Positions 3,001 through 49,544 of a stretch of DNA of 64,000 nt are shown here, one piece after another. A program made the position numbers and the translations under genes. Within the stretch, counting starts at the first letter, position 1; every line of letters begins with the position of its first letter. Source of the stretch: Escherichia coli (lineage in GTDB: Bacteria; Pseudomonadota; Gammaproteobacteria; Enterobacterales; Enterobacteriaceae); NCBI RefSeq assembly GCF_003790525.1, contig NZ_CP033635.1; one strand, given 5' to 3'. A model generated the notes under the pieces. The model ran no database searches. It was not told the DNA's origin and saw nothing but the letters and a program-made list of their open reading frames with translations.

Positions 3001-6000
3001 CCTGGACACGATCTTTACGGTGGTTACCAGCCCGGATAGCAGCCAGGCGAAAATGTGGGGGCATATGCCGGAAACGGTGACGGCTGAGGACGGTACGGTC
3101 TTTAAACGCCCGCGGTTACTGAAGGAACTGAGCAGTCAGACTGGGCGAACATCAACGCTTGAAGACAACGAAAACTGGGCGTTGTTTAACATTAATTATG
3201 CGAGCTCTTCCACGACGTATAGTGGCTGTGGAACCAACTATATTCCGACTCAGGCCGGTCTGACGTCACTGTTTGCTAATAATGCGGGCAACACCATGAA
3301 AACCGTGCAGGGCTGGCCGGTGGCAACGCGCTATTTGTCCAACACGTCCGACAATGGCAGCATGGAGCAGCGTAACTACAAGGCGGTCGATCTCAGCAAT
3401 GGCACGAGTGCGGCAGTGTCATCAACGGCGCTGCAACTGCTGACCTGTCAGACTACACCGGTAACCACGGTGAGCCAAATCCTGCTGGAAGCGGCAGATC
3501 CGGCGACGCTGGATACCACCTATAACGTGGTAAAAGCGAAAAAAGGCGAAGAATCCGTGGTGCGCGTCACCACCAAAGATGCACAAGGCAACCTGGTGGG
3601 CAATACGGCATTTATCCTGACGCGTGCCAACAGCGTGAGTCGGGCTAATGCATCAGCGACGATGAGCGTGGGCTCGTTGACGGTGACGGATGCCTGGGGC
3701 AATACGCGAAATAATTTCCAGTCGACAAGTGAAACCATTTACGGCGTGACCGGTGCCGACGGGTCAACGACATTGACCCTGAAACAGGATAACAGTACCG
3801 GGTTAAGAACCGATCTCACGGCAAAACTGGATACGTCCAGCAGCGTCAAGGCAACGCTACCGGTGGTCTTTACCGTCGTGACCAGCCCGGATTCGCCAAA
3901 AGCGAATTTTTGGGGACATATGGCCGAAACGGTGGCGGCCTCCGATGGTTCAGTCTATAAACGCCCACTGTTGCTGGCAGAGCTGGCCAACACTGGCGGG
4001 CGACAAATCAGTTCAGAGAACGGGGAAAGCTGGGTACGATTCACCTGGAATCAGTCGACAGATCCTTCTGTAAGCGGCTGCGGCGTTGCGTATATGCCAA
4101 CGTTGGCAGGCCTGCAAGCGTTGTATGACGCTAATAGTGGTAATGCAATGAGTACGGTACAGGGATGGCCGGTAAAAGCGACCTATCTCACCAATACCCC
4201 AAGTGACACGCAAACGGGGAGCCGTTACTACAATGTGGTGCAACTGGATTCTGGCGCAGCCTCGCAAATCACGACGAACACGGGTGTACTGCAAACCTGC
4301 CGTACAACGCCGTTGACGGCTGCCAGCCAGATTACGCTGGAGGCCGCGGATCCTGCGCAATTTGTCAGCATTGACAGCACGCTTAGCGCTGTCAAAGTGC
4401 AGAAAGGCGATAGCGTGCCGATCCGCATTTCGACTAAAGATGCGCAGGGCAATTTCGTCGGCAATACGCCGTTTGCCCTGAAACACGCGAACTCGATCAA
4501 TCGTCAAAATGTGTCGTCATCGCAGAAAGTGTCGGTCACGACGGAGGTGGGTACGACGGTGGATACCAGTGCAACAACCACCCTGTATGGCGTAACCGGG
4601 CCAGACGGAACCACCACGATGACGCTCCGACAGGATGCGTCCACCGGGTTAAGAACCGACTTTTATGCCCTGTTGAACGATACCGGCGTGTCGTCGGACA
4701 CCTTGCCGGTGATCTTTACCGTCATCACCAGCCCGGATACGCCGCTGGCGGCCAACTGGGGCCATATGGCGGAAACCTTTACCAGTAGCGAAGGCGTCAC
4801 CTTCAAGCGGCCTTCCCTCAAAGCTGAACTCTCTGGCGGTACGGCCATAACGGTCAATAATGAAGTCTGGTCGCGCCTGACAGCGGCGGAGAAAGTGGAT
4901 GCCAGCAAGGCCGGGTGTGATGAGACGTATCAACCGCTGGTGAATGACATGCAGGGGTTGTATGCGGATTACCCTAACGGCCAGTTAGGATCGGTGCTCG
5001 GCTTGCCGACGTCTGCCGGGTATTGGTGGGCCTACGACATGATGATGGTTTCTGGCAACTGGACTAATCAGGCATTTTCACCTGTTAATGGTCAGTTGAT
5101 GCAGGCATCGTCCAGCTATACGGCGATCGTGATGTGTCTGGTAGAACCACATACGGAAGCAGCCACAATAGAGCTTACTTCAACGGCGCAGGACGCAGCA
5201 AAATCGGCCAGTAATGGTGGACGACCGAGCGCCGTAGCGAAGAAAGGCGAGACGATTCCGTTGACGGTGACCGTGCGTGATAGCGCCGGGAACCCGATGC
5301 CATATGCTGAGTTTACCCTCACGCGTGAAACGACGCTGGATCGCTCGAAAGCAACCGTTAACACGAGTGCGGACGACCTTACCGTAACGGCATTGGTACC
5401 CGCGAATACAAATAGTGTGTTGGCAGCAAGTGGAGCAAAACTGATCGGCACGACGGGCAGCGATGGCAAAGCGACCTTTGAGGTGAGTCAGAATGCGACG
5501 ACCGGGCTGGCGACGCCGTTAACCGTGACGCTGGCGCGTGATACGACGAAAGCCGCCACGCTGGATGTTATCTATACGGTGATCACCAGCCCGGATTCGC
5601 CGAGTGCGAAATTCTGGGGGCATATGCCGGACACCTTTACCAGCTCGACGGGCGTCACCTTCAAACGACCGCTGCTGAAAGCAGAAACCAGCTCAGGCTC
5701 ATCGATTAGCTCTAACGGCGAAGTTTGGTCATATATGAGCAACGCGCAAAATTTAACATCGACAGATTGCCCGCTCGAAAATCAACCGCGCAGTAATGAG
5801 CTGTTGGATTTGTATAGTGATCACCCGAACGGCACGCTAATGACCGACCTGGGGTTACCCGTATATGCAGGTAACTGGTGGGCCTATGATATGGTCATGC
5901 TGAGTGGAACGTCGTGGACTTATCAACTCATCAGCCTGAAAGACGGAACCATTACGCAGAAGGGGACAACCAGTGCGTTGATGCTTTGCCTGGCACAGCC

Positions 6001-7715: not shown

Positions 7716-9135
<1,420 letters not shown>

Positions 9136-17536: not shown

Positions 17537-17551
17537 TTACCGTTGAGGTAA
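17537..17551. promoter_or_regulatory. TTACC-N5-GGTAA operator-like site (perfect), leftward early promoter region
   Basis: TTACC GTTGA GGTAA. Confidence 0.5.
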
Positions 17552-17670: not shown

Positions 17671-18255
17671 TTATTGTTTGTTTTTTTCGTTCTGGTTGAT
17701 GACAAATTCAATGTAACTTTCGATCTTTGCTTTCTCGGTTTCGGGTAACAATGCGTAGCGCGAGCGATCATAGTTGATGGTCGCAGGGTCATGCGGATGA
17801 ATCAGTAGTTCATATCCGTGACGCCCGAATGCAGATGCAACATTCTCCAGGGTGGAAATGGAAACGCTGACCTCATTGTTTAACAGGCGGCTTATTGTCA
17901 CCTGGGCGACGCCGGATGCGCGGTGAAGTTTTCCCTGAGTTGAAAGGTCGCGGCTTTCACTCATCCAGCGTTCCAGGTTGTGAGCCGCCAGCTGACCTAT
18001 ATCACTCGGGCCGACAGGCTGAAAACCCTCCTGAGAAAGCGAGCGATCAATATCAAGCCAGTTACGGGGTTTATTGGCGGCAGCTTCAATTTTTCGCGCA
18101 ACCTGGTCGCCGATAACCTTCTTGCCAAGAGCCCAGCGGTTTACCAGATTTGCCTGAGTTCCAAGTTTTTCTGCCATCCGCGTCTGAACACCATTGAATT
18201 CACGGTCGATCAAGTCGTTGAGATTTTGCCTGCGGACGTCCTGGATACTTTTCAT
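17671..18255 (-). CDS. putative immunity repressor with two HTH regions, no S24 peptidase domain
   Basis: 194 aa; HTH-like segments TRMAEKLGTQANLVNRWALG and ASGVAQVTISRLLNNEVSVSISTLENVASAF; divergent from cro-like gene across an operator cluster. Confidence 0.6.
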   Translation of the reverse strand: MKSIQDVRRQNLNDLIDREFNGVQTRMAEKLGTQANLVNRWALGKKVIGDQVARKIEAAANKPRNWLDIDRSLSQEGFQPVGPSDIGQLAAHNLERWMSESRDLSTQGKLHRASGVAQVTISRLLNNEVSVSISTLENVASAFGRHGYELLIHPHDPATINYDRSRYALLPETEKAKIESYIEFVINQNEKNKQ

Positions 18256-44468: not shown

Positions 44469-44882
44469 ATGAAGGAATTATTGCTGTTATCGGTATTTTT
44501 GATATCCGCTTGCTCGACATCCTATGATGTTTATGACGGTGTTGATAAGGCATATTGCGACAAAGTTAAAATGGATTTTTCTCTTGCCAAGACGGCGAAG
44601 GATAGTTGTATTGATCACTACGTCAAGACTTATACCAAGCCAGCCTCATCGGCATCTGATATTGCTGAAGGTGCTGTGTTTGAGTGTAACAAGGTGATAT
44701 CCATCGCAGCGAGTTCTTCATACGATGCTGCTGTATGTGCAATGGCTGAAAGAAACGGCATGTCAGTGCAAAAAATTAATAGCATGATAAGCAGTAATGA
44801 CGAAGCCAAAATAAGAACTGATATCAGCTCGGTGAAAAAAGATGCCATGAACAGAGTTGTAAAATATCAGTCATCTTTATAA
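44469..44882 (+). CDS. lipoprotein (candidate superinfection-exclusion/cargo)
   Basis: Signal peptide with lipobox LISAC; low GC; followed by terminator. Confidence 0.5.
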   Translation: MKELLLLSVFLISACSTSYDVYDGVDKAYCDKVKMDFSLAKTAKDSCIDHYVKTYTKPASSASDIAEGAVFECNKVISIAASSSYDAAVCAMAERNGMSVQKINSMISSNDEAKIRTDISSVKKDAMNRVVKYQSSL

Positions 44883-44920: not shown

Positions 44921-45082
44921 TTAACGAATGCCACCGCCACCCGGGCGGGAATCCGCAGAACGCCCACCGCAGCGGGAGCCGTCAGCAGCAGTGTCGCTGT
45001 CGTGCTGACAACGACCGGCAAAGGCCTGAGTTGAAGCTACCAGAGACAACAAAACGAACAGTGCAGCAAATGCTTTTTTCAT
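44921..45082 (-). CDS. small secreted Gly/Arg-rich peptide with two Cys (53 aa precursor)
   Basis: MKKAFAALFVLLSLVASTQAFA signal peptide then GRCQHDSDTAADGSRCGGRSADSRPGGGGIR. Confidence 0.3.
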   Translation of the reverse strand: MKKAFAALFVLLSLVASTQAFAGRCQHDSDTAADGSRCGGRSADSRPGGGGIR

Positions 45083-45152: not shown

Positions 45153-45175
45153 ACAAAAAAGCCCGCAGCGCGGGC
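45153..45175 (-). terminator. rho-independent terminator after two-gene cassette
   Basis: gcccgc agcg cgggc hairpin with T-run on minus strand. Confidence 0.5.
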
Positions 45176-45615
45176 TATTCTTCTTCATCATTAAAAAGCG
45201 GATTGTTGTTTCCATCTGATGAAAGGAAAGGTATGTGTTCTCTTGAAAATCCAACAATGACAATTTCATTATCATTTTTTGCATAATGAATGCATTCATT
45301 AGAATGCCTTCCGCCAGGGTTGAAATTTAAGTTAATGGTATAATTCTTAAATGTGTTTGGATACCATGTTGGCCCACAATGATAATGCCAATAATTCTCT
45401 TGCTCATAATTGTCTGAGCCGGGAATTTTATCATGGTTATCATCAACCCACGAGGGCTTGTTTTTTCCAACAAGCGCCCTTCCATTGGCAACATCCTCTA
45501 AAAAACTTTGTATGATTTTTATTTCATCATCAGTAAGGAAAGGTCCGTCTACAGCGAAAGGGGTGTTGCTTTCCCCATGTAGAAAACTATTAGATATTCT
45601 AATGTTAAACTTCAA
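45175..45615 (-). CDS. hypothetical ~147-aa protein, downstream gene of two-gene cassette (candidate toxin/effector)
   Basis: TTG start with SD AGGAG 6 nt upstream (an in-frame ATG at 45756 has no SD and overlaps the upstream gene); contains WHYHCGP and GGRHSNECIH segments; low GC. Confidence 0.4.
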   Translation of the reverse strand: MKFNIRISNSFLHGESNTPFAVDGPFLTDDEIKIIQSFLEDVANGRALVGKNKPSWVDDNHDKIPGSDNYEQENYWHYHCGPTWYPNTFKNYTINLNFNPGGRHSNECIHYAKNDNEIVIVGFSREHIPFLSSDGNNNPLFNDEEE

Positions 45616-45635
45616 GGAAAACTCCTGATGTGCTT

Positions 45636-45803
45636 CTATTTGGAGCGAAATGCCGCCTTGAAGTCGCTGAAAGATGTTCCTGTCTGGTAAACCATATCCT
45701 TGTCGCGCTCTTTGCTTGCGCGGCCAAGCATAACTTTTCCAATGACATCCCAGCATTGCTTGGCTTGTTCATTGTGCTGAGTACGATTTTTCAACGCTGT
45801 CAT
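45636..45803 (-). CDS. hypothetical 55-aa protein, upstream gene of two-gene cassette (candidate antitoxin/regulator)
   Basis: ATG with SD AGGAGG; MTALKNRTQHNEQAKQCWDVIGKVMLGRASKERDKDMVYQTGTSFSDFKAAFRSK; not in ORF track (<60 aa). Confidence 0.4.
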   Translation of the reverse strand: MTALKNRTQHNEQAKQCWDVIGKVMLGRASKERDKDMVYQTGTSFSDFKAAFRSK

Positions 45804-45815
45804 ATCGCGCCTCCT

Positions 45816-45830
45816 TTACCTTTAAGGTAA
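45816..45830. promoter_or_regulatory. TTACC-N5-GGTAA operator-like site (perfect) upstream of two-gene cassette
   Basis: TTACC TTTAA GGTAA. Confidence 0.5.
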
Positions 45831-45902: not shown

Positions 45903-46592
45903 TCAGAAGAACCCAGCCTTGTCGTTGATGTACTCCGCGTGGGTCTGGATATCACGCAGGCATTTGCTCACACCAACAATGTAGCAGAACATGGTGGTCA
46001 GCTCCGCCGCCGCGCCCGATACGTCGTGCCCGTCTTCCTGTAACTGGTTCAGCAGATTCATCAGCAGTGAGTTCTCCGTCAGGCCGAGAACACCAGACGG
46101 AGAATGAATCAGGCTGCGGTAGCCGGGCTTCAGTGGGGCACTGTAGGTTTTGTTCTCTATCTTCATTGCCTGCATCACTGCTGATGCTGTGGCGTTGGCT
46201 ACCTGGTCGGCAACTATCTTTATGCGTTCTTCCTGCGGGAGCGAGTTTTTAATGTAACTTCCGGTGCGGCGGATCTGAGGAAGAACCTCACCTGTAACCC
46301 ATTTACGAAAGCGGTAGGGGATAGTGCCTGGTGTCACTGCGTCGCGGCAGCGGAGGATCAGTGTGTAGAGGCCTGACTCGTTGATAATATTGGTTTCACC
46401 TTGACGGCCTAAGTTAAATTTAGCCCTTTCATCATCATCAAGAGATTTTATTGACATAGTGGGGTTTGTCAGTTGAAGAGCTTTAATAACGTCTTTGGCA
46501 ACAAACCAAGGATTTCCATCAATAACAATGGCTCGAATGGTGGCTTCTGATTCAAAATGAAAAACAGATGGGGTTACGTTAGCAGTCATAGT
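45903..46592 (-). CDS. Bro-N domain protein (antirepressor-like)
   Basis: Start MTANVTPSVFHFESEATIRAIVIDGNPWFVAKDVIKALQL typical of Bro-N/KilA-N-type N-terminus; SD AAAGGTGAT. Confidence 0.55.
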   Translation of the reverse strand, partial: TMTANVTPSVFHFESEATIRAIVIDGNPWFVAKDVIKALQLTNPTMSIKSLDDDERAKFNLGRQGETNIINESGLYTLILRCRDAVTPGTIPYRFRKWVTGEVLPQIRRTGSYIKNSLPQEERIKIVADQVANATASAVMQAMKIENKTYSAPLKPGYRSLIHSPSGVLGLTENSLLMNLLNQLQEDGHDVSGAAAELTTMFCYIVGVSKCLRDIQTHAEYINDKAGFF

Positions 46593-46855
46593 GATCACCT
46601 TTGTAGTTAGGTTAATCACCACTACCGACGCCAATCGGTTGGTGGTGAACTGTGCAGGGTTGGCGTAACCGGCTACAAAGGACCCGGCGCACCTTTCGGT
46701 GCCCCCACACAGCCCACCATAGAATAGGTGCGCTTTACACATAAAAAAACCGCTTATGCGGCATATGTGCCTCTGTAGTAACCCGGGACGCCAATCCCGG
46801 CACTGGATTTTGCCAGTGCCCGATTACTATGGCACAAGAGGAGTGCGATGTAAAT

Positions 46856-46870
46856 TTACCGAAAAGGTAA
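46856..46870. promoter_or_regulatory. TTACC-N5-GGTAA operator-like site (perfect)
   Basis: TTACC GAAAA GGTAA. Confidence 0.5.
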
Positions 46871-46901
46871 TAATAAACACTCTACTTGGTAATTGCAAAC
46901 C

Positions 46902-47159
46902 TTATCTGGTTTGTTTTCGTAATTGTTCGGCACAATAGTCGAGATGTGTTTGCAGATCCCGCATAGACATCTGTGAGCTGGTGACGTAGTTAATCAGTGC
47001 AGTCAGTTCGGCAAGTGGGCCATCGACATTAAATCCATCCTTATCGAGATCCCGGAGTAATTTCATCAAGTGCGATCCCTCCACCAGTGACCTGACGCCT
47101 CCCGGCGTGTGAATCCTTTCGGTAAATCCGTCTTCCAGTGGATAGTGATACTGCTGCAT
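46902..47159 (-). CDS. small protein homologous to the C-terminal domain of the adjacent Bro-N protein
   Basis: IHTPGGVRSLVEGSHLMKLLRDLDKDGFNVDGPLAELT aligns with IHSPSGVLGLTENSLLMNLLNQLQEDGHDVSGAAAELT of 45903-46592. Confidence 0.45.
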   Translation of the reverse strand: MQQYHYPLEDGFTERIHTPGGVRSLVEGSHLMKLLRDLDKDGFNVDGPLAELTALINYVTSSQMSMRDLQTHLDYCAEQLRKQTR

Positions 47160-47235
47160 CTTATCTTCTCCATGCAATAACTGTATATTTATACAGTATC
47201 AAATAATTTGTTTGCTATCCAGCACGTTTTGCAAA

Positions 47236-47250
47236 TTACCCGAAAGGTAA
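47236..47250. promoter_or_regulatory. TTACC-N5-GGTAA operator-like site (perfect) in divergent region upstream of tailspike
   Basis: TTACC CGAAA GGTAA. Confidence 0.5.
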
Positions 47251-47354: not shown

Positions 47355-49544
47355 ATGACGGTCTCAACCGAAGTTGACCACAACGAATACACCGGTAACG
47401 GCGTTACGACATCATTTCCGTATACCTTCCGTATTTTCAAAAAAACCGACCTGGTTGTTCAGGTGTCTGACCTGAACGGGAACGTAACAGAATTGGTTCT
47501 GGATACCGGTTATAAGGTAACTGGAGCGGGCACTTATAGTGGCGGTGAAGTGGTTCTCCAGTCGCCGCTTGCTGCTGGCTGGCGAATTACGATAGAGCGT
47601 GTGCTTGATGTGGTGCAGGAGACTGATCTTCGCAATCAGGGAAAATTTTTCCCCGAAGTTCATGAAGATGCATTTGACTACCTGACGATGCTGATCCAGC
47701 GATGTTTTGGGTGGTTCAGACGTGCATTGATGAAACCATCTTTGCTTGCAAAATATTACGATGCAAAGCAAAACAAAATTTCTAACCTTGCAGATCCATC
47801 ATTTGAGCAGGACGCTGTAAATAATCGCTCAATGCGTAATTATGTCGATGCTGCAATCGCCGGGGTTGTTGGTGGTTTTGGTTGGTTTATACCGTCAGGA
47901 AGCGGGGCAAGACAACGAACATTTCAAAGCAAAATGAGGGATATAATTTCTCCTTGTGATTACGAAGATAATATTTTTATGATTAAGGAGTTGATATCCA
48001 AAGGCAAAAATGCCGCTGTTTTTAACTCATATTATACTTTTGTTATTACTGTTGGCGAATGGGGTGATTTCCCTACACTCAAAGATGCAATCATTGCAGC
48101 CCAGTCAATGAGACCTATGTGGGATGGTGGTAATGCTTTCTGCGAAATAAGAATTAAGACCGGGCATATTATCAACTATCAAATTGAATTCAGTTCAGGT
48201 GTTGATTTGTCTTGGATTAAAATAACATCAGAAGACTCAGTGGTTTTCTCTGACACTCGTTTGTTTACTAAAATCGTTAGAACGTATTACGAATACAAGT
48301 ATTTATTTTACATTTGCGATGCAGCAAAAAGTCCTGTATTTGCTATTCAGATCGAAGAAAATAGAGATGATAGCGATGTTTGTGCATTTATTGTAACTCA
48401 AAAAGCTGAACTTAATTTCTATCCGTATTCAGGTGCTCGAAAGTTCTACGTTGGAATTCATGGTAGTTTTGGTGCAAAAATTAGTGCATATCATACCGGA
48501 TGTGCTCCTGATGAGGAAAGTGTTGCTGCATATATGCCAGAAGGGTATTACGTATGTGATTTTTCTTATAGCAGATACTCTTCCCTGCAACTGGTAAATA
48601 ATGTCAAGGCATCAATGCCTGTAAGCAAGTTTGAACGGTGCACAGAGAGTACGGTTGCGTCAGTTAATTGTATTTATAATGTTAAAGCAGATTTTCAGGG
48701 GTCAAGTGCAAGCTATTGTTATATAGGATGGAATGTAAGAGATGGTTCAAATGTTAATATACGCGACCATAAAACTATACATTGCTCATATCGTGGATTA
48801 ACCTGCATTCATACAGCATATGTTGATGCAAGACGACATGACGTTGAAGAAAGTGATGCAGAAACAAGTGGTAAAGTCCTTGAACCAAATATTGAAAAAG
48901 GTTTTTATGGATGTGCACTTGGTGTGCGTATTGATGGTGCGGGTTGCGTTGATGTTGCTGGTAATGATATGCGCAATTGTGGAACAGCCGTTAATGCAGA
49001 CACTGGTGCTGTTATTTCAGGAAAGGCTGTAGATATCTCAGGGGCTGAGCTGGGATTTGATTGCCATGCAGGAGCATCTGTTAATTTTCCAAGGCTATGG
49101 GGTACAGATATAAAAAAATTAATGCACCTCCAAGATGGTGTAAGGTTTAACTCTAATATTTGTCATGTATTTGGTGCAAATCCCACAAAAGATATTAGAT
49201 GGATTGATGTAGAGAGATCTGAAGCTTCTTTTATGAATGCAACGCTGGATGCAGATTCAGGATTTATTGCCGACTGTGGTAGTAGGATAACCATTGAAGG
49301 AAGTAAAGTTAAAAACCAAACAATAAGAAGTTTTTTTGGATCATATGTGGCTATAAATAATACTGTTGCTGACAGAACTTATTCAGATATAGCCGATGTT
49401 CCGCAGTTGACTATTAGTGGAGGATCTTTTATTTCTGCTACAGGATATTCTAATTCTGACTCCAGCCCTCTGAGGTTGAGCACAACACGAAATACACTTG
49501 GCGTTGGAGGAGCCATATTTTCAACCAATGGGGAAGTTTCATGA
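47355..49544 (+). CDS. tailspike/tail fiber protein
   Basis: 729 aa; conserved-looking N-terminal particle-binding region then AT-rich C-terminal region with repetitive beta-rich sequence. Confidence 0.65.
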   Translation: MTVSTEVDHNEYTGNGVTTSFPYTFRIFKKTDLVVQVSDLNGNVTELVLDTGYKVTGAGTYSGGEVVLQSPLAAGWRITIERVLDVVQETDLRNQGKFFPEVHEDAFDYLTMLIQRCFGWFRRALMKPSLLAKYYDAKQNKISNLADPSFEQDAVNNRSMRNYVDAAIAGVVGGFGWFIPSGSGARQRTFQSKMRDIISPCDYEDNIFMIKELISKGKNAAVFNSYYTFVITVGEWGDFPTLKDAIIAAQSMRPMWDGGNAFCEIRIKTGHIINYQIEFSSGVDLSWIKITSEDSVVFSDTRLFTKIVRTYYEYKYLFYICDAAKSPVFAIQIEENRDDSDVCAFIVTQKAELNFYPYSGARKFYVGIHGSFGAKISAYHTGCAPDEESVAAYMPEGYYVCDFSYSRYSSLQLVNNVKASMPVSKFERCTESTVASVNCIYNVKADFQGSSASYCYIGWNVRDGSNVNIRDHKTIHCSYRGLTCIHTAYVDARRHDVEESDAETSGKVLEPNIEKGFYGCALGVRIDGAGCVDVAGNDMRNCGTAVNADTGAVISGKAVDISGAELGFDCHAGASVNFPRLWGTDIKKLMHLQDGVRFNSNICHVFGANPTKDIRWIDVERSEASFMNATLDADSGFIADCGSRITIEGSKVKNQTIRSFFGSYVAINNTVADRTYSDIADVPQLTISGGSFISATGYSNSDSSPLRLSTTRNTLGVGGAIFSTNGEVS

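What the first reader, a model, noticed from the sequence alone, without database searches (positions are those of the whole stretch)
45903..47159. Bro-N antirepressor-like gene accompanied by a free-standing paralog of its C-terminal domain
The 85-aa product of 46902-47159 aligns at roughly half identity with the last ~80 residues of the Bro-N protein (45903-46592), but has no Bro-N domain. The prophage repressor has no recognisable autocleavage (S24) domain, so induction may depend on an antirepressor. A domain-only paralog could modulate that antirepressor or be a remnant of module exchange.
Basis: partly seen in the sequence, partly recalled or inferred. Interest (0 to 1): 0.5.

Follow-up and report, generated by a model that had tools for sequence, protein, structure and literature searches.

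The report
Two antirepressors sharing one targeting domain
The small protein is this prophage's already-characterised DNA-damage-triggered antirepressor, and the Bro-N protein next to it is a second, RNA-gated antirepressor that carries a diverged copy of the same domain, so this is a tidy but largely known arrangement.

Summary
The 85-aa product of 46902-47159(-) aligns without gaps to the last ~80 residues of the Bro-N protein (true CDS 45903-46589(-)). Identity is 41%, E=2e-20, and these are the only two copies in the window.

The small protein is the ortholog (87% identity) of Ant of Salmonella phage SPC32H, solved in complex with its repressor (PDB 5D50). It has a near-consensus LexA box 22 nt upstream. 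The prophage repressor (17671-18255) is a homolog of SPC32H Rep and has no S24 domain.

The Bro-N gene lies behind an IsrK sRNA and a C4 antisense RNA. The C4 loops are complementary to the Bro-N ribosome-binding site. This is a P1-immI / Gifsy-1 isrK-anrP type of RNA gate.

The Ant-type C-terminal domain is fused elsewhere to Bro-N, AntA, P22_AR_N, Rha or ORF6N N-terminal domains, always behind a regulatory module. Free and fused copies form two old clades, both under purifying selection.

Most likely one repressor is attacked through two inputs: SOS via LexA and the small Ant, and an RNA switch via Bro-N-Ant. Binding of the fused domain to Rep is inferred, not shown. I rate it a new member of known kinds, of modest interest.

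The parts
46902..47159 (-). ant: free-standing 85-aa antirepressor, ortholog of SPC32H Ant
   Evidence: PDB 5D50 chain E 'Anti-repressor protein', E=1.4e-46. Annotated 'ant' in SPC32H/SPC32N. phrog_450, 7e-48. dN/dS 0.06.
47179..47198 (-). LexA (SOS) box TACTGTATAAATATACAGTT, 18/20 to consensus, 22 nt upstream of the ant ATG
   Evidence: It is the only CTGT-N8-ACAG match in the window with an AT-rich spacer. The same offset is conserved in phiV10, SPC32H, TL-2011b, Tyrion and HEMP4.
47236..47250 (.). ATTACC-N5-GGTAAT palindrome (inferred Rep operator) upstream of ant
   Evidence: 17 copies in the window against 1.1 expected. The same site lies upstream of SPC32H ant.
46856..46870 (.). Same palindrome, abutting the -35 of the isrK promoter
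   Evidence: The juxtaposition palindrome + (A/T)TTTACA is conserved in TL-2011b, Tyrion, Klebsiella, HEMP4, L009 and L011.
46826..46854 (-). Predicted sigma-70 promoter P_isrK (TTTACA-17-CATAGT with TG); it places the start at about 46819, the 5' end of IsrK
   Evidence: Consensus scan. Position relative to the Rfam isrK match.
46743..46819 (-). IsrK sRNA with its terminator; carries decoy sites b1 (UUGGCGU, 46794-46788) and a1 (CUACAGAGG, 46778-46770)
   Evidence: Rfam RF01394, 74.7 bits (gathering 50), and RF03163 c4-a1b1, 44.1 bits. Complementarity.
46638..46724 (-). C4 antisense RNA
   Evidence: Rfam RF01695, 79.5 bits (gathering 45), full length.
46598..46634 (-). C4 target sites on the Bro-N mRNA leader: b2 UUGGCGU (46634-46628) and a2 CUACAAAGG (46606-46598), the latter covering the Shine-Dalgarno AAGGUG
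   Evidence: Exact complementarity to the C4 loops CCUUUGUAG and ACGCCAA. The b sites covary with C4 in Klebsiella and L009, where they read AGACCAA / UUGGUCU.
45903..46589 (-). Bro-N-Ant fusion, 228 aa: Bro-N domain (~46278-46538), helical linker, Ant-type C-terminal domain (45906-46151)
   Evidence: Pfam Bro-N 1.3e-19. C-terminus vs 5D50_E, E=1.1e-13. AF2 model of the domain has pLDDT 88.8 and its only Foldseek PDB matches at high probability (1.00) are 5D50_E/G, TM 0.81, rmsd 1.4 A.
45816..45830 (.). Third palindrome, overlapping a TTGCAG-17-TACTAT promoter-like site and the 5' UTR of the downstream 55-aa ORF
   Evidence: sequence.
17671..18255 (-). Rep: prophage repressor, the inferred common target
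   Evidence: PDB 5D50 chain A 'Repressor', E=4e-42. Pfam HTH only, no S24. Flanked by palindromes at 17537, 17599, 18311 and 18359.

Best explanation
The window carries an epsilon15/phiV10-like prophage whose lysogeny is held by an SPC32H-type repressor (Rep, no self-cleavage domain). Two antirepressor genes sit side by side next to the tailspike gene, and both end in the same kind of small helical domain. (1) The free-standing 85-aa protein is Ant. LexA sits on its promoter region. DNA damage removes LexA and Ant is made. By homology to the SPC32H crystal structure, an Ant tetramer then grips the C-terminal domains of Rep dimers and pulls Rep off its operators. (2) The Bro-N protein is a second antirepressor in which a diverged Ant-type domain is the C-terminal, repressor-targeting module. 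Its expression is gated as in P1 immI and Gifsy-1 isrK-anrP. A promoter abutted by a Rep-operator-like palindrome makes IsrK, and read-through makes C4. The C4 loops pair with the Bro-N ribosome-binding site (a2/b2) and keep it untranslated. IsrK carries matching decoy sites (a1/b1) that can titrate C4. No terminator separates ant from isrK. SOS-driven ant transcripts and Rep release should therefore both raise IsrK-containing RNA and unlock Bro-N-Ant, giving a feed-forward step or an SOS-independent route to induction or anti-immunity. Shown here: homology, the RNA elements, base complementarity with covariation, the LexA box and its conservation, co-occurrence with Rep, and purifying selection. 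Inferred: that the fused domain binds this Rep, that the palindrome is the Rep operator, and the feed-forward logic.
For: Small protein equals SPC32H Ant and Rep equals SPC32H Rep. The published mechanism is summarised in PMC9638917. The LexA box is conserved at a fixed offset. C4, IsrK and c4-a1b1 were found with Rfam; C4 and IsrK score above their gathering cutoffs, c4-a1b1 just below its own (44.1 vs 46.7 bits). These RNA elements recur upstream of the fused Ant gene in phiV10, TL-2011b, Tyrion, Klebsiella, HEMP4, L009 and L011. The 9-nt a2 and 7-nt b2 sites lie at the Bro-N SD, and the b sites covary with C4. The leader folds with z=-6.0, with IsrK a1/b1 paired in cis to the C4 loops. The Bro-N C-terminus is an Ant domain by sequence and by predicted fold. 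In the phage collection all 35 records with an Ant domain also encode a full-length Rep homolog. The same C-terminal domain, identical or nearly identical in sequence, is fused to AntA (P0122) and to P22_AR_N behind arc/sar in TL-2011b; more diverged copies of the domain are fused to Rha and ORF6N. In every case a regulatory module sits upstream. dN/dS is 0.06 and 0.23-0.26. No terminator-like site lies between the ant stop and the IsrK terminator. Gifsy-1 has the same two-channel logic, with LexA controlling GfoA (PMC3121763) and IsrK controlling AnrP, which induces the prophage (PMC4825925).
Against: No binding data exist for the fused domain. It is only 41% identical to Ant, and I could not map the 5D50 interface residues. 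The Bro-N gene is dispensable in nature: it is absent from SPC32H/epsilon15, PAS61, BUCT554 and BUCT711, and frameshifted in phiV10. Free Ant is 87% identical between this prophage and SPC32H although the Rep C-terminal domains are only 37% identical, so the specificity rules are unclear. The co-occurrence with Rep is phylogenetically non-independent, because all records belong to one phage group. No consensus sigma-70 promoter was found for ant. The primary SPC32H papers could not be read here.
Confidence: 0.65

Rival explanations
1. The fused domain does not bind Rep. Instead it co-assembles with the small Ant, which is tetrameric in SPC32H, so that Bro-N-Ant tunes, sequesters or recruits Ant.
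For: The fold is shared and SPC32H Ant is reported to be an oligomer. 21 columns are invariant across free and fused copies. The two genes are adjacent and possibly co-transcribed.
Against: The two clades are old and only 37-41% identical within each phage. The identical fused domain sits on P22_AR_N- and AntA-type antirepressors, which have their own control circuits. That pattern is easier to explain if the domain is the warhead. Many phages carry Ant without any fused partner.
Confidence: 0.12
2. Bro-N-Ant is an anti-immunity weapon aimed at Reps of related resident prophages, or is used only on superinfection or lytic entry. It is not part of induction of its own prophage.
For: phiV10's copy was annotated 'anti-immunity protein'. 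P1 and P22 immI antirepressors act this way (established knowledge). Trans-acting antirepressors cross-target non-cognate repressors in Salmonella (PMC3121763). The diverged domain could have a different specificity from Ant.
Against: Identity of the fused domain to the window's copy tracks Rep identity in the three lineages available: 100% with 100%, 78% with 78%, and 53% with 45%. That fits a cognate target. In Gifsy-1 the IsrK-AnrP route does induce the resident prophage.
Confidence: 0.15
3. The Bro-N gene is a dispensable, decaying passenger with no present role.
For: It is frameshifted in phiV10 and absent from many homoimmune relatives. It lies in a moron-rich slot.
Against: dN/dS is 0.2 over the full length across genera. 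The RNA gate is conserved, with compensatory changes. The same layout is retained in distant relatives that have swapped the N-terminal domain.
Confidence: 0.08

Closest known systems
Rep-Ant antirepression system of Salmonella podophage SPC32H (Kim & Ryu 2013, J Virol 87:11775; Kim et al. 2016, PNAS 113:E2480; PDB 5D50, 5D4Z)
   Same: The small protein is ~87% identical over its full length. The genome position is the same, divergent from the tailspike gene. The LexA box is at the same offset and the same palindrome lies upstream. The Rep homolog is of the same two-domain, non-cleavable type.
   Different: SPC32H has only the free Ant, followed by a terminator. This prophage adds an IsrK-C4-gated Bro-N protein carrying a second, diverged Ant-type domain. 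Rep is only 42% identical overall: 52% in the N-terminal domain and 37% in the C-terminal domain.
Gifsy-1 isrK-orf45(STnc1160/C4)-anrP locus (Hershko-Shalev et al. 2016, PMC4825925), together with the LexA-controlled GfoA (Lemire et al. 2011, PMC3121763)
   Same: The RNA layout is the same: isrK, then C4, then an antirepressor gene. The overall logic is also the same: a small LexA-controlled antirepressor plus a larger RNA-gated one in a single prophage.
   Different: The proteins are unrelated. AnrP vs the Bro-N protein gives E=4.3, AnrP vs GfoA gives E=8.2, and Ant vs GfoA gives no alignment. In Gifsy-1 the two antirepressors are not paralogs. Here the a2 site lies directly on the Bro-N SD and there is no separate orf45; the upstream reading frame runs in-frame into Bro-N.
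Phage P1/P7 immI (c4 antisense RNA - icd - ant1/2)
   Same: There is a C4 RNA with a'/b' loops, a1/b1 targets upstream, and a2/b2 targets downstream over a ribosome-binding site. An operator for the main repressor lies at the promoter, and repressor operators are dispersed around the genome.
   Different: There is no icd-like leader gene. The host phage is an epsilon15-like podovirus. The antirepressor's C-terminal domain is of the SPC32H Ant type. An extra LexA-controlled mini-antirepressor sits immediately upstream. Homology to P1 Ant itself was not tested.
P22 immI (arc-sar-ant)
   Same: The sister phage TL-2011b carries an Arc-like gene, a sar RNA and a P22_AR_N protein that ends in a C-terminal domain identical to the one here.
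   Different: The window itself has no P22_AR_N, arc or sar. Control here is by C4/IsrK.

Membership tests
SPC32H-type Ant (free-standing antirepressor, PDB 5D50 chain E) | Full-length sequence homology to SPC32H Ant, ~86 aa, single domain | tested here: met
   E=1.4e-46 over residues 2-84 of 85; 86.7% identity by tblastn.
SPC32H-type Ant (free-standing antirepressor, PDB 5D50 chain E) | LexA operator at the ant promoter | tested here: met
   TACTGTATAAATATACAGTT at 47179-47198, conserved in position with SPC32H. LexA binding itself was not testable.
SPC32H-type Ant (free-standing antirepressor, PDB 5D50 chain E) | Cognate non-cleavable Rep-type repressor in the same phage | tested here: met
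   Rep 17671-18255 vs 5D50_A, E=4e-42. No S24 domain. 35/35 co-occurrence in phage records.
SPC32H-type Ant (free-standing antirepressor, PDB 5D50 chain E) | Tetramer that binds Rep C-terminal domains and releases Rep from DNA | not testable with these tools
   Known for SPC32H only (secondary source PMC9638917).
Ant-type domain (applied to the Bro-N C-terminus) | Sequence and fold of SPC32H Ant | tested here: met
   E=1.1e-13 to 5D50_E. AF2 pLDDT 88.8. Foldseek top hits 5D50_E/G, TM 0.81, rmsd 1.4 A; no other hit has probability above 0.10.
Ant-type domain (applied to the Bro-N C-terminus) | Binds Rep | not testable with these tools
   Inferred from co-occurrence with Rep and from domain shuffling only.
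P1-type immI / IsrK-C4 gated antirepressor | C4 RNA and IsrK / a1b1 element upstream of the antirepressor gene | tested here: met
   RF01695 79.5 bits, RF01394 74.7 bits, RF03163 44.1 bits. The same layout is found in Gifsy-1.
P1-type immI / IsrK-C4 gated antirepressor | C4 loops complementary to sites over the downstream RBS and to upstream decoy sites, with covariation | tested here: met
   a2, b2, a1 and b1 located. The b sites covary in Klebsiella and L009.
P1-type immI / IsrK-C4 gated antirepressor | Leader ORF (icd / orf45) translationally coupled to ant | tested here: not met
   There is no separate ORF. The frame from ATG 46742 runs in-frame into Bro-N, and a2 sits on Bro-N's own SD.
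P1-type immI / IsrK-C4 gated antirepressor | Antirepressor protein homologous to AnrP | tested here: not met
   BLASTP E=4.3.
BRO family (Pfam PF02498) | Bro-N domain above the Pfam threshold | tested here: met
   i-Evalue 1.3e-19, residues 19-105.
Gifsy GfoA/GftA small antirepressors | Sequence homology | tested here: not met
   No alignment between Ant and the presumed GfoA (STM2621.1n). It works like these proteins but is not a member.

The most novel reading that the evidence does not exclude
The SPC32H-Ant fold may be a portable repressor-targeting 'warhead'. On its own it is the SOS-triggered antirepressor. Fused behind interchangeable N-terminal modules (Bro-N, AntA, P22_AR_N, Rha, ORF6N), each with its own control circuit (C4/IsrK RNA switch, Arc/Sar), it lets one phage feed two or three independent signals into the same repressor; TL-2011b and HEMP4 carry three copies. 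If so, the variable C-termini of the large and poorly understood 'Bro/KilA/Rha antirepressor' families in general would be the specificity determinants, and the conserved N-terminal domains would do something else.
Probability: 0.45. Interest if true: 0.55.

Novelty: new member of a known kind. Interest (0 to 1): 0.33.

Why it matters
The result reassigns a PHROG of 'unknown function' (phrog_450), and hundreds of 'hypothetical protein' annotations in E. coli, Salmonella, Klebsiella and Enterobacter prophages, to a structurally defined antirepressor. It also gives a concrete, testable role to the C-terminus of one class of Bro-N, Rha, AntA and ORF6N 'antirepressors', whose mechanism is mostly unknown. 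The locus is a compact natural system for asking how a prophage combines an SOS input with an sRNA switch on a single repressor. For phiV10-type O157 typing and therapy phages and their prophage relatives, it predicts which genes control induction.

Tried and rejected
- Pfam, NCBIfam and PADLOC gave nothing for the small protein or the Bro-N C-terminus.
- The word-indexed homolog search returned only close free-standing copies. The exhaustive profile search was needed to see the fusions.
- The full-length AF2 model of the Bro-N protein was poor (pLDDT 58) and was not used. A domain-only model with a 29-sequence alignment worked.
- I tested whether Gifsy-1 shows the same paralogy between AnrP and GfoA. 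It does not, so the 'big Ant = N-domain + small-Ant-like domain' rule cannot be generalised from this case.
- I looked for a Rep homolog next to distant fused-Ant genes (L009-L011). None lies within the 10-kb flanks, which is uninformative because Rep is ~28 kb away in this prophage.
- The consensus scan found no clear sigma-70 promoter for ant. Candidates picked by eye were weak, so I do not assign one.
- The primary SPC32H papers are not in the library. Mechanistic statements about Ant and Rep rest on PDB titles, a secondary description and my own recollection of the abstracts.
- No paper was found describing the Bro-N/Ant-domain fusion. This is absence of evidence only.

Full report
**Context.** The window is E. 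coli chromosome carrying an epsilon15/phiV10-like (Uetakevirus-type) prophage.
- The 3.1 kb around the finding is 100% identical to E. coli WWCOL-236 and 92-97% identical in parts to phages HEMP4, phiv142-3, TL-2011b and phiV10.
- RefSeq annotates the two genes as 'Bro-N domain-containing protein' (window 45903-46589) and 'hypothetical protein' (46902-47159). They lie between the last large virion/ejection-type gene and the divergently transcribed tailspike.

**Observation.** It is confirmed.
- BLASTP aligns the 85-aa product to residues 148-225 of the Bro-N protein without gaps, at 41% identity and E=2e-20.
- A tblastn of either domain against the whole window finds no third copy.
- Pfam sees only Bro-N (residues 19-105, 1.3e-19) in the larger protein and nothing in the small one. 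NCBIfam sees nothing in either.
- PHROGs places the small protein in phrog_450 ('unknown function', 7e-48) and finds the same family on the Bro-N C-terminus.

**What the small protein is.**
- It matches PDB 5D50 chain E, 'Anti-repressor protein' of the Rep-Ant complex of Salmonella phage SPC32H, at E=1.4e-46 over its whole length. SPC32H and SPC32N annotate the ortholog as ant.
- The prophage repressor (17671-18255, 194 aa) matches 5D50 chain A 'Repressor' at E=4e-42. It has only HTH-type Pfam hits and no Peptidase_S24.
- A near-consensus LexA box (TACTGTATAAATATACAGTT, 18/20) lies 22 nt upstream of the ant ATG. It is the only AT-rich CTGT-N8-ACAG site in 64 kb.
- The box sits at the same offset in SPC32H, phiV10, TL-2011b, Tyrion and HEMP4. 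More distant relatives have ATGT-N8-ACAG there.
- From the literature as I recall it, and as summarised in PMC9638917: SPC32H Rep binds DNA as a tetramer, and tetrameric Ant binds two Rep dimers and breaks the tetramer. By my own recollection of the primary papers, ant is de-repressed when LexA is cleaved. I could not open the two primary papers.
- The gene is strongly constrained, with dN/dS 0.06 against SPC32H and Tyrion.

**What controls the Bro-N gene.**
- Rfam finds three elements between the two genes on the coding strand. C4 antisense RNA lies at 46638-46724 (79.5 bits, cutoff 45). IsrK lies at 46743-46819 (74.7 bits, cutoff 50). The c4-a1b1 element also matches.
- The C4 loop CCUUUGUAG is exactly complementary to CUACAAAGG at 46606-46598, which covers the Bro-N Shine-Dalgarno. 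With one G-U pair it also matches CUACAGAGG inside IsrK.
- C4 ACGCCAA is complementary to UUGGCGU both in the Bro-N leader (46634-46628) and in an IsrK loop (46794-46788). This is the a1/b1 - c4 - b2/a2 design of P1 immI.
- In Klebsiella and in metagenomic locus L009 the b element reads AGACCAA in C4 and UUGGUCU in both targets. That is a compensatory change.
- The 251-nt leader folds far better than shuffles (z=-6.0), with the IsrK a1/b1 sites paired in cis to the C4 loops.
- A TTTACA-17-CATAGT promoter predicts a start at the IsrK 5' end.
- The same isrK-C4 pair precedes AnrP in Gifsy-1. There, IsrK in trans unlocks translation of the antirepressor and induces the prophage (PMC4825925).
- No terminator-like site separates the ant stop codon from IsrK. 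SPC32H, which lacks the Bro-N module, has a hairpin terminator right after ant.

**The palindrome.**
- TTACC-N5-GGTAA, usually ATTACC-N5-GGTAAT, occurs 17 times in the window against 1.1 expected. Fifteen of the 17 lie within the prophage; the other two, each with one mismatch (7317, 56155), lie outside it. It occurs 18 times in SPC32H against 0.65 expected.
- In SPC32H three copies lie between rep and the divergent cro-like gene and three just downstream of rep. In the window the corresponding sites are 18311/18359 and 17537/17599.
- I therefore infer that it is the Rep operator. This is not proven.
- One copy precedes each of the three transcription units in the finding's region: ant (47236), P_isrK (46856, abutting the -35, a juxtaposition conserved across genera), and the downstream 55-aa ORF (45816).

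**The domain family.**
- An exhaustive profile search of 1.84 billion representative proteins finds only 59 clusters. Most are free-standing proteins of 82-91 aa.
- The rest carry the domain at the C-terminus of larger proteins. Pfam assigns their N-terminal domains to Bro-N, AntA, P22_AR_N, Phage_pRha (two proteins) and ORF6N.
- P0122 (AntA) and TL-2011b gp42 (P22_AR_N) have C-terminal domains identical to the window's. TL-2011b gp42 sits next to an Arc-like gene and a sar RNA.
- TL-2011b and HEMP4 have three Ant-domain copies.
- Distant epsilon15-like loci keep the whole layout but swap Bro-N for ORF6N (L009) or Rha (L011). The layout is tailspike, small Ant with an SOS-like box, palindrome, P_isrK, isrK, C4, then the fused Ant.
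- A neighbour-joining tree separates a free-Ant clade from a fused-domain clade. In both, the Escherichia and Enterobacter (Tyrion) copies group more closely than the Klebsiella copy. The duplication is therefore old, not a recent event in this phage.
- The fused domain is constrained, with dN/dS 0.23-0.26.
- A domain-only AF2 model (pLDDT 88.8) has 5D50 chains E and G as its only Foldseek PDB matches at high probability (1.00) (TM 0.81, rmsd 1.4 A).

**Link to Rep.**
- In the phage collection all 35 records with an Ant domain also encode a full-length Rep homolog. Of the Rep-encoding records, only BP9 (PP488543) lacks an Ant domain.
- Identity of the fused domain to the window's copy tracks Rep identity: 100% with 100%, 78% with 78%, and 53% with 45%.
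- Free Ant does not track it. It is 87% identical to SPC32H Ant although Rep is 42% identical overall and 37% in the C-terminal domain.
- All these phages are related, so this evidence is weak.

**Mechanism proposed** (confidence ~0.65). Two inputs converge on one repressor: LexA de-repression of ant, and the C4/IsrK switch on Bro-N-Ant. A likely feed-forward exists, because Rep release and ant read-through both raise IsrK-containing RNA, which can titrate C4.
- Rival 1: hetero-oligomerisation of the two paralogs (0.12).
- Rival 2: an anti-immunity role against other Reps (0.15).
- Rival 3: a decaying passenger gene (0.08). phiV10's copy is frameshifted and several homoimmune phages lack the gene.

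**Comparison and novelty.** The small gene is already known. The RNA gate is a known kind (P1 immI, Gifsy-1 isrK-anrP). The Bro-N protein is unrelated to AnrP, and Ant is unrelated to GfoA. What I did not find described is that the Bro-N C-terminus, and that of four other antirepressor architectures, is an SPC32H-Ant domain. Overall this is a new member of known kinds. Interest is modest (0.33), with a more interesting but unproven modular-warhead reading.

Noticed in passing
window 12515-47250 (15 sites, e.g. 17537, 17599, 18311, 18359, 18696, 20598, 20660, 24851, 24869, 27770, 28387, 45816, 46856, 47236): The ATTACC-N5-GGTAAT palindrome is scattered at intergenic or 5'-UTR positions throughout the prophage (17 matches against 1.1 expected), and likewise in SPC32H (18 against 0.65). 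This looks like a P1-C1-style dispersed operator network for Rep. Two copies (24851, 24869) lie inside the annotated 5' end of the small terminase gene.
   Followed up: partly
window 46590-46742 (-): An ATG at 46742, just after the IsrK terminator, opens a 50-codon frame that runs through the C4 RNA in-frame into the Bro-N ATG. Database proteins such as P0131 and P0123 include such C4-derived N-terminal extensions, which are probably mis-annotations. In Gifsy-1 the equivalent stretch is the functional 'orf45'.
   Followed up: partly
window 45175-45803 (-) and 44921-45082 (-): Downstream of Bro-N lie a 55-aa ORF (phrog_8607), a 146-aa ORF (phrog_5954) and a 53-aa ORF. None has a Pfam, NCBIfam or PADLOC hit, and they have their own palindrome and promoter. 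TL-2011b has a YafO-family toxin pair in the same slot, and the Klebsiella phage has a HicAB-like pair between ant and isrK. The slot looks like a moron or toxin-antitoxin hot spot.
   Followed up: partly
L002 (phiV10) 3571-4250: In the type phage phiV10 the Bro-N gene is split into a 194-aa CDS and a 29-aa ORF, and the Ant-type domain is recovered only as two tblastn pieces. This is an apparent frameshift that removes the C-terminal domain.
   Followed up: no
L004 (TL-2011b) 7777-8961; L007 (HEMP4): TL-2011b carries a third antirepressor: P22_AR_N fused to the identical Ant-type domain, next to an Arc-like gene and a sar RNA (Rfam 44.8 bits). HEMP4's Bro-N has a different N-terminal subtype but the same linker and C-terminal domain, which points to recombination at the domain boundary.
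   Followed up: partly
window 44469-44882 (+): A 137-aa predicted lipoprotein (signal sequence plus Cys; phrog_8691, unknown function) lies between the 824-aa virion protein gene and the immI-like region. SPC32H and phiV10 have a small membrane protein at this position. It may be a superinfection-exclusion or moron gene.
   Followed up: no
window 47355-49544 (+) vs L001 22956-24971: The tailspike ORF in the window is 729 aa, whereas the RefSeq CDS in the otherwise identical strain WWCOL-236 is 671 aa. The window may derive from a different strain, or the receptor-binding part may differ. The N-terminal ~110 residues are the conserved epsilon15-type head-binding module.
   Followed up: no
window Rep 17671-18255 vs SPC32H Rep: Free Ant is 87% identical between this prophage and SPC32H, although the Rep C-terminal domains it is supposed to grip are only 37% identical. 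Either the contact surface is a small conserved patch or Ant is constrained by something else. This is unexplained.
   Followed up: partly
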